Positions 61,166 to 64,000 of a stretch of DNA of 64,000 nt are shown piece by piece. The notes below the pieces were generated by a model. That model had not been told where the DNA came from. It ran no database searches and saw only the letters and a list, made by a program, of their open reading frames with translations. This DNA is from Escherichia coli (GTDB lineage: Bacteria; Pseudomonadota; Gammaproteobacteria; Enterobacterales; Enterobacteriaceae): assembly GCF_003334315.1 (NCBI RefSeq), contig NZ_QOWR01000001.1; one strand, written 5' to 3'. The stretch's first letter is position 1. Each line of letters begins with the position of its first letter. The translations under genes and the position numbers were made by a program.

Positions 61166-64000
61166 ATGAGCGGAAAACCGGCAGCGCGTCAGGGCGACAT
61201 GACGCAGTATGGCGGTAGCATTGTTCAGGGTTCAGCCGGGGTGCGCATTGGTGCCCCCACCGGCGTGGCCTGTTCGGTGTGCCCCGGCGGAGTGACGTCC
61301 GGCCATCCGGTCAATCCCCTGCTCGGTGCAAAGGTCCTTCCCGGTGAAACCGACATCGCCCTGCCCGGCCCGCTGCCGTTCATCCTCTCCCGCACCTACA
61401 GCAGTTACCGGACAAAAACGCCCGCGCCGGTGGGGAGCCTCGGCCCCGGCTGGAAAATGCCTGCGGATATCCGCTTACAGCTGCGCGATAACACACTGAT
61501 ACTCAGTGATAACGGCGGCAGAAGCCTGTATTTTGAGCACCTGTTTCCCGGTGAGGACGGTTACAGCCGCAGCGAGTCACTGTGGCTGGTGCGCGGCGGC
61601 GTGGCGAAACTGGATGAAGGTCACCGGCTGGCCGCACTCTGGCAGGCGCTGCCGGAAGAACTCCGCTTAAGTCCGCATCGTTATCTGGCGACAAACAGTC
61701 CGCAGGGGCCGTGGTGGCTGCTCGGCTGGTGTGAGCGGGTGCCGGAAGCGGATGAGGTGCTGCCTGCGCCGCTGCCGCCGTACCGGGTACTGACCGGGCT
61801 GGTGGACCGCTTCGGGCGCACACAGACGTTCCACCGCGAAGCCGCCGGTGAATTCAGCGGCGAAATCACCGGCGTGACGGATGGTGCCGGGCGTCACTTC
61901 CGGCTGGTACTGACCACGCAGGCGCAGCGGGCAGAAGAAGCCCGGCAGCAGGCCATTTCCGGCGGGACGGAACCGTCCGCTTTTCCTGATACCCTGCCGG
62001 GTTACACCGAATATGGCCGGGACAACGGCATCCGTCTGTCTGCCGTGTGGCTGACGCACGACCCGGAATACCCGGAGAATTTACCTGCCGCGCCGCTGGT
62101 GCGCTATGGCTGGACGCCGCGCGGCGAACTGGCGGTGGTGTATGACCGTAGTGGCAAACAGGTGCGCAGCTTTACTTACGATGATAAATACCGGGGCCGG
62201 ATGGTGGCGCACCGTCACACGGGCCGGCCGGAAATCCGTTACCGTTACGACAGCGACGGGCGGGTGACAGAACAGCTTAACCCGGCAGGCTTAAGCTACA
62301 CGTATCAGTATGAGAAAGACCACATCACCATCACCGACAGCCTGGACCGCCGTGAAGTGCTGCACACGCAGGGCGAAGCCGGGCTGAAGCGGGTGGTGAA
62401 AAAGGAACACGCGGACGGCAGCGTCACGCAGAGTCAGTTTGACGCCGTGGGCAGGCTCAGGACACAGACGGATGCCGCAGGCCGGACAACAGAATACAGC
62501 CCGGATGTGGTGACGGGCCTCATCACGCGCATCACCACGCCGGATGGCAGGGCATCGGCGTTTTACTATAACCACCACAGCCAGTTAACGTCAGCCACCG
62601 GGCCTGACGGGCTGGAAATACGCCGGGAATATGATGAATTGGGCCGTCTGATTCAGGAAACTGCCCCTGACGGCGATATCACCCGCTACCGTTATGATAA
62701 TCCACACAGTGACTTACCCTGCGCAACGGAAGATGCCACCGGCAGCCGGAAAACCATGACGTGGAGCCGTTACGGTCAGTTGCTGAGCTTCACCGACTGT
62801 TCCGGTTATGTAACCCGTTATGACCATGACCGTTTTGGTCAGGTGACGGCGGTGCACCGCGAGGAAGGGCTGAGTCAGTACCGCGCATACGACAGCCGTG
62901 GACAGTTAATTGCCGTGAAAGACACGCAGGGCCATGAAACGCGGTATGAATACAACGCCGCCGGTGACCTGACCACCGTCATTGCCCCGGACGGCAGCAG
63001 AAACGGGACACAGTACGATGCGTGGGGAAAAGCCATCTGTACCACGCAGGGCGGTCTGACGCGCAGTATGGAATACGATGCTGCCGGACGGGTCATCCGC
63101 CTGACCAGTGAAAACGGCAGCCACACCACCTTCCGTTACGATGTACTCGACCGGCTGATACAGGAAACCGGCTTTGACGGCCGCACACAGCGTTATCACC
63201 ACGACCTGACCGGCAAACTTATCCGCAGCGAGGATGAGGGGCTGGTCACCCACTGGCACTATGACGAAGCAGACCGCCTCACGCACCGCACCGTGAATGG
63301 CGAAACCGCAGAGCGGTGGCAGTATGACGAACGCGGCTGGCTGACAGACATCAGCCATATCAGCGAAGGGCACCGGGTGGCGGTGCATTACAGGTATGAT
63401 GAGAAAGGCCGGCTGACCGGTGAGCGCCAGACGGTGCATCACCCGCAGACGGAAGCACTGCTCTGGCAGCATGAGACCAGACATGCGTACAACGCGCAGG
63501 GACTGGCGAACCGCTGTATACCGGACAGCCTGCCCGCCGTGGAATGGCTGACCTACGGCAGCGGCTGGCTGGCAGGCATGAAGCTCGGCGACACACCGCT
63601 GGTGGATTTCACCCGCGACCGCCTGCACCGGGAAACGCTGCGCAGCTTCGGTCGTTATGAACTCACCACCGCTTACACCCCTGCCGGGCAGTTACAGCGT
63701 CAGCACCTGAACAGCCTGCAGTATGACCGCGATTACACCTGGAACGACAACGGCGAACTCATCCGCATCAGCAGCCCGCGCCAGACCCGGAGTTACAGCT
63801 ACAGCACCACCGGCAGGCTGACCGGCGTTCACACCACCGCAGCGAATCTGGATATCCGCATCCCGTATGCCACGGACCCGGCGGGCAACCGCCTGCCCGA
63901 CCCGGAGCTGCACCCGGACAGCCCCCTCAGCATGTGGCCGGATAACCGTATCGCCCGTGACGCGCACTATCTTTACCGGTATGACCGTCACGGCAGGCTG
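61166..64000 (+). CDS. rhsB: Rhs-family polymorphic toxin core protein with N-terminal PAAR-like domain, 5' part only (runs past window end)
   Basis: ATG at 61166; frame stays open to the window end in visibly GC-rich DNA; [29 protein letters not shown]... followed by repeated YD-type units (RYRYD, TYQYE, RYEYN, RYDxxGRL). Not in ORF track because no stop in window. Confidence 0.9.

What the first reader, a model, noticed from the sequence alone, without database searches (positions are those of the whole stretch)
61166..64000. Start of a PAAR-Rhs polymorphic toxin gene immediately downstream of the nik operon
A long open frame begins at 61166 in DNA that is visibly more GC-rich than the upstream nik genes, and encodes the conserved Rhs N-terminus (PAAR-like) followed by YD-repeat units. 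Rhs elements carry variable C-terminal toxin tips and immunity genes, but those lie beyond the window and cannot be assessed here. Together with yhhZ/yrhA this gives the window two independent polymorphic-toxin loci without a secretion apparatus in view.
Basis: partly seen in the sequence, partly recalled or inferred. Interest (0 to 1): 0.5.

Follow-up and report, generated by a model that had tools for sequence, protein, structure and literature searches.

The report
Start of E. coli rhsB gene
This is the first two-thirds of rhsB, a long-known E. coli gene for a shell-forming protein that carries a swappable toxin; the finding is correct but ordinary.

Summary
An ATG at 61166, with an AAGGA ribosome-binding site 7 nt upstream, opens a frame of 945 codons with no stop that runs off the window. 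It lies 202 bp after nikR. It is the textbook rhsB of E. coli: 98.2% identical in DNA to K-12 b3482 and 99.6% to the nearest complete genome. The product has a 47-residue N-terminal piece, a DUF6531 plug and at least 11 YD/RHS repeats. The nearest solved structure is P. aeruginosa Tse5 (E 1e-93).

"PAAR-like" needs a qualifier. Pfam finds no PAAR domain. Residues 2-29 are one PAAR repeat, equal to the third repeat of true three-repeat PAAR-Rhs relatives.

In the nearest genomes the gene is intact (1411 aa). The boundary motif PISDIDPLGL sits at aa 1238-1247, followed by a 164-aa AT-rich DUF4329 (Tox-JAB-2) tip and the immunity gene yhhH. This strain's own tip cannot be read from the window, and other strains carry a different tip at this locus. 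No type VI secretion cluster lies in the 64 kb. Already known; low interest.

The parts
60964..61165 (+). AT-rich leader (35% GC), specific to the rhsB locus; it is the left end of the variable island that abuts the nikR stop codon
   Evidence: GC is 0.351. Homology to a genome without the island (ATCC 11775) ends at the nikR stop codon. The rhsA, rhsC and rhsD paralogs share no homology here until the ATG. No sigma-70-like site was found on the + strand.
61154..61158 (+). Ribosome-binding site AAGGA, 7 nt before the ATG
   Evidence: Read directly from the sequence.
61166..64000 (+). rhsB coding sequence, codons 1-945 of about 1411, cut by the window edge
   Evidence: No stop in 945 codons. 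DNA is 98.2% identical to K-12 rhsB and 99.6% to NZ_AP027829 rhsB. NCBIfam RHS_core scores 1980.8 bits.
61169..61252 (+). Single PAAR repeat, aa 2-29 ([28 protein letters not shown]); inferred to be the module that couples to VgrG
   Evidence: A phmmer search of aa 1-47 against PDB sequences hits only PAAR or spike-tip proteins, always at their last repeat: 9rce_c E 9e-4, 4jiv_D 0.011, 4jiw_D 0.27, 8gra_J 0.84. It aligns to repeat 3 of three-repeat relatives, whose N-terminus scores Pfam PAAR at 5.5e-19.
61253..61306 (+). Linker and anchor segment, aa 30-47, with invariant Cys36 and Cys39; it ends at the predicted N-terminal autocleavage site H47|P48
   Evidence: Invariant columns G33, A35, C36, S37, C39, P40, P48, V49, N50 and P51 in alignment A1. 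The Tse5 shell chain 8cp6_B starts at PVNP, which aligns to aa 48. Tse5 is cleaved at K47|P48, and its residues 30-47 are anchored inside the shell (PMC10684867).
61301..61534 (+). DUF6531 N-terminal plug domain, aa 46-123
   Evidence: Pfam PF20148, E 1.7e-17. It matches the Tse5 plug at E 4.9e-16.
62246..63841 (+). YD/RHS-repeat shell: Pfam-detected repeats at aa 361-892; homology to the shell runs from about aa 286 to the window edge
   Evidence: 11 RHS_repeat hits at E<1e-3. TIGR01643 scores 4.5e-38. Query aa 286-916 align to Tse5 shell residues 189-829.

Best explanation
The region is the 5' two-thirds of rhsB, one of the 'orphan' (neighbourless) Rhs genes of E. coli. It lies in a variably present island inserted directly after nikR.

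Shown here:
- The product begins with a 47-residue fragment made of one PAAR repeat plus a Cys-containing anchor.
- A DUF6531 plug follows, and then YD repeats homologous to the solved Rhs cocoons.

Inferred from relatives and from published work on Tse5 and other Rhs proteins:
- The full protein is about 1411 aa. The YD repeats close into a shell that encloses a C-terminal toxin of about 164 aa.
- An aspartyl-protease plug cuts the toxin free at the PxxxxDPxGL boundary, and the N-terminal fragment is cut at H47|P48.
- The PAAR-like N-terminus mounts the particle on a VgrG spike, so that a type VI secretion system fires it into neighbouring bacteria.
- The producer is protected by the immunity protein encoded just downstream.

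In the nearest genomes the toxin is a DUF4329/Tox-JAB-2 domain and the immunity protein is YhhH (Imm-NTF2-2). No VgrG gene or secretion cluster is nearby. Delivery therefore depends on an apparatus encoded elsewhere in this strain. In a K-12-like background that lacks one, the gene would be dormant.
For: Identity:
- Searches give the nikR-rhsB junction, 98.2-99.6% DNA identity, and a window colinear with K-12.

Architecture:
- RHS_core 1980.8 bits; YD repeat model 4.5e-38.
- DUF6531 1.7e-17; 11 RHS repeats.
- Tse5 at E 1.3e-93, plus other type VI Rhs structures.

N-terminus:
- Searches show a single PAAR repeat that equals repeat 3 of true PAAR-Rhs relatives.
- 197 of 207 homologs with the Cys motif are the short form.
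- Searches show the conserved PVNP cleavage motif.

Link to VgrG:
- Short-form homologs lie directly after vgrG in L008 (152 bp) and L014 (63 bp).
- The long form lies inside a type VI cluster.
- Tse5 is secreted with VgrG1c (PMC10684867).

Downstream part in relatives:
- PISDIDPLGL at aa 1238-1247, and a tip with 32-37% GC.
- DUF4329, 9.8e-40.
- Imm-NTF2-2, 3.4e-26.
- the full protein scores 2639.7 bits against a cutoff of 2000, and Rhs_assc_core covers aa 1170-1247.
- Zhang et al. 2012 pair Tox-JAB-2 with Imm-NTF2-2.
- tip plus yhhH is contiguous in 2648 of 5426 genomes.
Against: - The last third of the gene, the tip and the immunity gene are not in the window. This strain matches no complete genome exactly (best: 12 mismatches in 2835 bp).
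- Another strain has a different tip at the same locus.
- No vgrG or type VI cluster lies within 64 kb, and nikR is the upstream neighbour.
- Published reviews say K-12 and B strains have no type VI system (PMC6730261). Secretion of this particular Rhs has not been shown in anything I read.
- One PAAR repeat cannot by itself form the three-fold cone that caps a VgrG trimer, so the coupling step is unexplained.
Confidence: 0.93

Rival explanations
1. The gene is intact but functionally silent in this strain. The host is K-12-like and has no type VI secretion system, so rhsB-yhhH persists only as a dormant toxin-immunity cassette and as a substrate for recombination between rhs copies.
For: - The window is colinear with K-12 at about 99% identity.
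- Reviews state that K-12 and B strains lack a type VI system (PMC6730261).
- No promoter-like site was found on the + strand in the 35% GC leader.
- Mosaic substitutions match the rhsA, rhsC and rhsD states, which shows ongoing exchange between copies.
Against: - The nearest genomes are wild isolates from humans, animals and sediment, not K-12, and I could not check them for a type VI system.
- The reading frame is fully preserved over 945 codons, and the protein is conserved. That argues for selection somewhere in the lineage.
Confidence: 0.45
2. The rhs gene at this locus carries a tip other than DUF4329, with a different immunity gene, as in strain S1bESBLb.
For: - S1bESBLb has a 1399-aa Rhs after nikR with a different tip and a trail of orphan immunity genes.
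- The same core joins tips of several kinds.
- The DUF4329 tip also occurs at the rhsA locus.
Against: - All sampled junction genomes at 97.3% DNA identity or more to the window are named RhsB, except one.
- The alternative-tip strains are only 96.2-96.5% identical to the window.
- 24 of the 25 closest genomes are named RhsB.
Confidence: 0.12
3. The gene is a pseudogene, broken by an insertion element, frameshift or stop just beyond the window.
For: - Some genomes show rhsB split by an ISEc1 element (H80) or matched in two pieces (H60).
- The neighbourhood in relatives holds IS remnants: yhhI and IS903B.
Against: - The gene is intact at 1411 aa in K-12 and in the nearest genome.
- There is no defect in the 945 codons that can be seen.
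Confidence: 0.07
4. The protein does not use type VI secretion at all. It acts inside the producer or leaves by another route, and the single PAAR repeat is a vestige.
For: - The N-terminus holds only a third of a PAAR domain.
- The gene is not next to vgrG, and a diverged short-form homolog is also an orphan (L009).
Against: - The short form lies directly after vgrG in two unrelated genomes.
- Its nearest solved relative, Tse5, is a type VI effector whose 47-residue N-terminus is described as needed for secretion (PMC10684867).
- The repeat is highly conserved: G3, P5, A6, R8 and D11 are invariant.
Confidence: 0.05

Closest known systems
E. coli K-12 RhsB (b3482) with YhhH (b3483)
   Same: - Same locus after nikR and same start codon.
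- 98.2% DNA identity, with 18 amino-acid differences in 945.
- Same N-terminus, plug and repeats.
   Different: - The substitutions come in blocks that match K-12 rhsA, rhsC or rhsD.
- The last 466 codons, the tip and yhhH cannot be compared because they lie outside the window.
Pseudomonas aeruginosa Tse5 (PA2684; structures 8cp6 and 9i9y)
   Same: - Same layout: an N-terminal fragment of about 47 residues described as PAAR-like, a cleavage motif X47|PVNP, a DUF6531 plug and a YD shell.
- E 1.3e-93 over the shell.
- Plug residues R119 and F123 here align with Tse5 R116 and F120.
   Different: - Tse5 is encoded next to its VgrG and carries a pore-forming tip; rhsB is an orphan after nikR.
- In relatives rhsB carries a DUF4329/Tox-JAB-2 tip.
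- Position 47 is His here and Lys in Tse5. Tse5 Q114 and G119 are not conserved.
Three-repeat PAAR-Rhs proteins inside type VI clusters (for example P0214, loci L011-L013)
   Same: Same ACSxCPGG...[11 protein letters not shown] linker, same plug and same shell. Their third PAAR repeat aligns residue for residue with RhsB aa 2-29.
   Different: They have about 61 extra N-terminal residues forming repeats 1 and 2, score Pfam PAAR at 5.5e-19, and lie directly after vgrG within a type VI cluster.
E. coli K-12 paralogs RhsA and RhsC
   Same: Cores are 98.3% (rhsA) and 97.6% (rhsC) identical to the window over the same 2835 bp, starting exactly at the ATG.
   Different: Different chromosomal sites, different leaders, and different tips and immunity genes (yibA, ybfB).

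Membership tests
RHS element core protein (NCBIfam NF041261; E. coli RhsA/B/C clade) | Whole-protein score at or above the curated cutoff of 2000 bits | tested here: inconclusive
   The window fragment scores 1980.8 bits over profile positions 1-959 of 1261. It falls short only because the protein is cut by the window edge. The full protein of the nearest genome scores 2639.7 bits.
RHS element core protein (NCBIfam NF041261; E. coli RhsA/B/C clade) | Array of YD/RHS repeats | tested here: met
   11 Pfam RHS_repeat hits at E<1e-3 between aa 361 and 892. TIGR01643 scores 4.5e-38.
RHS element core protein (NCBIfam NF041261; E. coli RhsA/B/C clade) | Rhs-associated core domain ending in the PxxxxDPxGL boundary (aspartyl-protease plug), then a variable AT-rich tip | not testable with these tools
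   These features lie beyond base 64000. In K-12 and NZ_AP027829, Rhs_assc_core covers aa 1170-1247, PISDIDPLGL is at aa 1238-1247, and the tip has 32-37% GC.
PAAR domain (Pfam PF05488) | Three PAAR repeats recognised by the family profile | tested here: not met
   There is no PAAR_motif or Tox-PAAR-like hit even at E<=10. All precomputed Pfam annotations of homologs list only DUF6531. Only one repeat is present, at aa 2-29.
Tse5-type Rhs (short PAAR-like N-terminal fragment) | N-terminal fragment of about 47 residues, then the PVNP cleavage motif and a DUF6531 plug | tested here: met
   Alignment to 8cp6_B starts at P48. P48, V49, N50 and P51 are invariant across 10 diverse homologs. DUF6531 scores 1.7e-17.
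Tse5-type Rhs (short PAAR-like N-terminal fragment) | Autocleavage at residues 47|48 and dependence on VgrG for secretion | not testable with these tools
   This needs protein chemistry and secretion assays. It is known for Tse5 only (PMC10684867).
Type VI secretion effector encoded in a vgrG island | vgrG, a chaperone gene or type VI core genes next to the rhs gene | tested here: not met
   nikR is the upstream neighbour. The 64-kb window is colinear with K-12 and its gene list holds no type VI core genes. The only related item is the Hcp-domain protein YhhZ, about 35 kb away.
Tox-JAB-2 (DUF4329) toxin with Imm-NTF2-2 immunity | C-terminal DUF4329 domain followed by an Imm-NTF2-2 gene | not testable with these tools
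   These lie outside the window. In K-12 and the nearest genome, DUF4329 scores 9.8e-40 and Imm-NTF2-2 scores 3.4e-26. The pairing is described by Zhang et al. 2012 (PMC3482391).

The most novel reading that the evidence does not exclude
The N-terminus of RhsB, and of most of its relatives including Tse5, is exactly one of the three repeats that build a PAAR cone. If that single repeat is the real spike-binding unit, there are two possibilities. Three Rhs particles may assemble on one VgrG trimer, each supplying a third of the cap. Alternatively, the repeat may dock in a way unlike any solved PAAR. I found no structure or experiment that settles the stoichiometry; residues 1-29 are disordered in the Tse5 structure.
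Probability: 0.1. Interest if true: 0.5.

Novelty: already known. Interest (0 to 1): 0.08.

Why it matters
For genome annotation it matters little. rhsB after nikR is a long-catalogued accessory element of E. coli, and its toxin-immunity logic is established.

Three points are useful:
- The 'PAAR' label on this Rhs clade refers to a single repeat, not a domain. That leaves the mode of spike attachment open.
- The core sequence does not predict the toxin tip, so windows that end inside the core cannot be used to assign a toxin type.
- The site after nikR is a hotspot that holds rhsB in about 38% of complete E. coli genomes and other cargo in some of the rest.

Tried and rejected
- Finding this strain's own downstream sequence failed.
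  - The best of 5426 complete genomes still differs at 12 of 2835 bases.
  - The large protein database is clustered at 90% identity, so it returns only cluster representatives. The best was an RhsC-named one at 98%.
- Pfam gave no PAAR hit, so I did not file the gene under the PAAR domain.
- An Rfam scan of 54000-64000 at E<=0.1 found nothing.
- The promoter and terminator scan found no site on the + strand before the gene.
- The DNA repeat search inside the region gave only short matches of the chance kind.
- The two largest antisense ORFs (62906-63628 and 61667-62059) match no NCBIfam family. I take them as by-products of GC-rich coding DNA.
- NCBIfam has no model for the DUF4329 tip or for YhhH.
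- I did not run structure prediction. Homology to solved Rhs shells is already decisive, and a 47-residue fragment is too small for a meaningful fold search.
- I could not test whether the nearest genomes carry a type VI system, because the genome search lists only the top records.

Full report
**Observation**

Translating 61166-64000 on the + strand gives 945 codons with no stop. The other five frames carry 11 to 47 stops, and the chance of so long an open run with this base composition is about 8e-13. The ATG at 61166 is preceded by AAGGA at 61154-61158, and stop codons lie in frame upstream. nikR ends at 60963. GC content is 62.5% for the coding part and 65.0% for its first 1.1 kb. That compares with 57.1% for nikA-nikR, 35.1% for the 202-bp leader and 52.9% for the window as a whole.

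**Identity**

A megablast of 60000-64000 against 5426 complete E. coli genomes finds the nikE-nikR-rhsB arrangement in 2082 of them, with a best identity of 99.7%.

- The window is colinear with K-12 MG1655 from rtcB to rhsB at about 99% identity. The only structural difference is the absence of IS1E from yrhA.
- Over the 2835 bp of rhsB there are 50 mismatches to K-12 and 12 to the nearest genome, NZ_AP027829. These give 18 and 4 amino-acid changes respectively.
- The mismatches to K-12 rhsB fall in blocks that carry the state of K-12 rhsA (61183-61246), rhsC (most of 62494-63568) or rhsD (63874-63886). This is the pattern expected from gene conversion among rhs copies.

**Protein anatomy**

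- NCBIfam RHS_core scores 1980.8 bits over profile positions 1-959 of 1261. The score sits just under the 2000-bit cutoff only because the protein is truncated by the window. The full protein of the nearest genome scores 2639.7 bits.
- Pfam finds DUF6531 at aa 46-123 (E 1.7e-17) and 11 RHS repeats at E<1e-3 between aa 361 and 892.
- Among solved structures the best match is the type VI effector Tse5 of P. aeruginosa (E 1.3e-93), followed by other type VI Rhs cocoons and, further off, teneurin-like proteins.

**The N-terminus**

Pfam reports no PAAR domain even at E<=10, and homologs are annotated with DUF6531 only. Yet residues 1-47, searched alone against PDB sequences, hit only PAAR or spike-tip proteins. 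In every case the match is to their last repeat: SalCis10 at E 9e-4, 4JIV at 0.011, 4JIW at 0.27 and 8GRA at 0.84.

An exhaustive search with the first 126 residues recovered two kinds of relative:

- Short forms that start like RhsB.
- A few long forms (P0172, P0204, P0212, P0214, P0222) that carry three consecutive PAAR repeats before the same ACSxCPGG...[11 protein letters not shown] segment.

In the alignment, Met1 of RhsB sits at the start of their third repeat. The long-form N-terminus scores Pfam PAAR at 5.5e-19. Of 207 retrieved homologs with the Cys motif, 197 are the short form, nearly always with 35 residues before the motif. The stops and the 35% GC leader upstream rule out a missed longer start here.

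RhsB therefore carries one PAAR repeat, not a PAAR domain. The literature calls the equivalent part of Tse5 'PAAR-like' (PMC10684867) or 'cryptic PAAR-like' (PMC7376260).

**Cleavage and plug**

The Tse5 shell chain in 8cp6 begins at PVNP, which aligns to residue 48 here. The Tse5 paper reports the following:

- Cleavage occurs between K47 and P48.
- Residues 30-47 are held inside the shell by the DUF6531 plug.
- Residues 1-29 are disordered.

P48, V49, N50 and P51 are invariant in my alignment, while position 47 varies. By homology I predict cleavage at H47|P48. This is inferred, not shown.

**Link to the secretion spike**

| Homolog | Form | Context |
|---|---|---|
| L008 | short | starts 152 bp after a vgrG gene |
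| L014 | short | starts 63 bp after a vgrG gene |
| L009 | short | orphan, like rhsB |
| P0214 (L011-L013) | long | follows vgrG inside a full type VI cluster |

Together with the Tse5-VgrG1c pairing in the literature, this supports the one-repeat N-terminus as a VgrG-coupling module. How a third of a cone caps a trimer remains unexplained.

**What lies beyond the window, in relatives**

- In K-12 and NZ_AP027829 the protein is 1411 aa.
- PISDIDPLGL is at aa 1238-1247, followed by a 164-aa tip. GC falls to 32-37%.
- The tip is DUF4329 (E 9.8e-40). Zhang et al. 2012 call it Tox-JAB-2 and suggest it may be a nuclease (PMC3482391). A later paper cites Ma et al. 2017 for RNase activity (PMC7216683). 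I did not see primary data for either claim.
- The next gene, yhhH, overlaps the stop and is an Imm-NTF2-2 immunity protein (E 3.4e-26).
- Tip plus yhhH is contiguous in 2648 of 5426 genomes.

**Limits on inference**

- The same core, at 95% identity or more, is joined to tips of several kinds.
- The DUF4329 tip with yhhH sits at the rhsA locus in strain CAVP746.
- Strain S1bESBLb has, after nikR, a 1399-aa Rhs with another tip, the boundary PVQYIDSMGL, and a trail of orphan immunity genes.

In an evenly spaced sample of 60 genomes:

- 23 have rhs after nikR. 19 of them are named RhsB, and the alternative-tip strains were the least similar to the window (96.2-96.5%).
- 20 have only paralogous cores at other sites.
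- 17 match nikR alone.

ATCC 11775 carries a GntR-PTS-kinase island after nikR instead, and its homology to the window ends at the nikR stop codon. Homology shared with the paralogs starts at the ATG itself, so the 202-bp leader is specific to this locus. I put the chance that this strain has the K-12-type tip at roughly 0.8.

**Secretion apparatus**

No type VI core gene lies in the 64 kb. The only related item is yhhZ, whose first 147 residues match the Hcp tube protein (E 3.8e-34). It is followed by an intact yrhA. Reviews state that K-12 and B strains lack a type VI system (PMC6730261). Whether this strain has one cannot be told from the window.

**Verdict**

The object is a long-known gene, so novelty is nil and interest is low. 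The one open point is how a one-repeat N-terminus engages the VgrG trimer.

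Noticed in passing
window 24601-26270: yhhZ (24601-25779) has an Hcp/TssD N-terminal domain (E 3.8e-34). The next gene, yrhA (about 25776-26270), is intact here, whereas K-12 has IS1E inserted in it. The junction of the missing IS is near 26157-26165.
   Followed up: partly
window 61183-63923: The 50 base differences from K-12 rhsB fall in blocks that match the K-12 rhsA state (61183-61246), the rhsC state (most of 62494-63568) or the rhsD state (63874-63886). This suggests gene conversion among rhs copies.
   Followed up: yes
window 60961-61165; L016 5400-10400: The site after nikR is a variable hotspot. 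About 38% of complete E. coli genomes have rhs there. ATCC 11775 has a GntR regulator, PTS sugar transporter and FGGY kinase island instead, and its homology to the window stops at the nikR stop codon.
   Followed up: partly
L017 7605-17400: Strain S1bESBLb carries, at the same nikR locus, a 1399-aa Rhs with a different tip and the boundary PVQYIDSMGL. It is followed by a chain of orphan immunity genes and tip remnants: NTF2-fold proteins, DUF6258, a frameshifted yhhH-like gene, yibA and sel1.
   Followed up: partly
L004 3166-7756: In strain CAVP746 the DUF4329 tip and yhhH sit on the rhs gene at the rhsA (yibF) locus, ahead of yibA. Tips therefore move between rhs loci, and a gene named 'RhsB' is not tied to the nikR site.
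   Followed up: no
window 60974-61004: A 9-bp hairpin (arms 60974-60983 and 60996-61004, with one G-T pair) lies just after the nikR stop codon, inside the island-specific leader. No T-run follows it.
   Followed up: no
window 6321-6427, 34518-34634, 40349-40475: Three dispersed elements of about 110-128 bp match intergenic K-12 sequences at other sites at 82-86% identity. They are probably REP/BIME-type repeats.
   Followed up: no
L008 1-20989: One genome (GCA_028069655.1) has a vgrG island with two short-form Rhs genes in tandem, each with small downstream ORFs. A second vgrG follows, with a DUF2169 gene and a third Rhs that has a different N-terminus and an Ntox8 tip.
   Followed up: no
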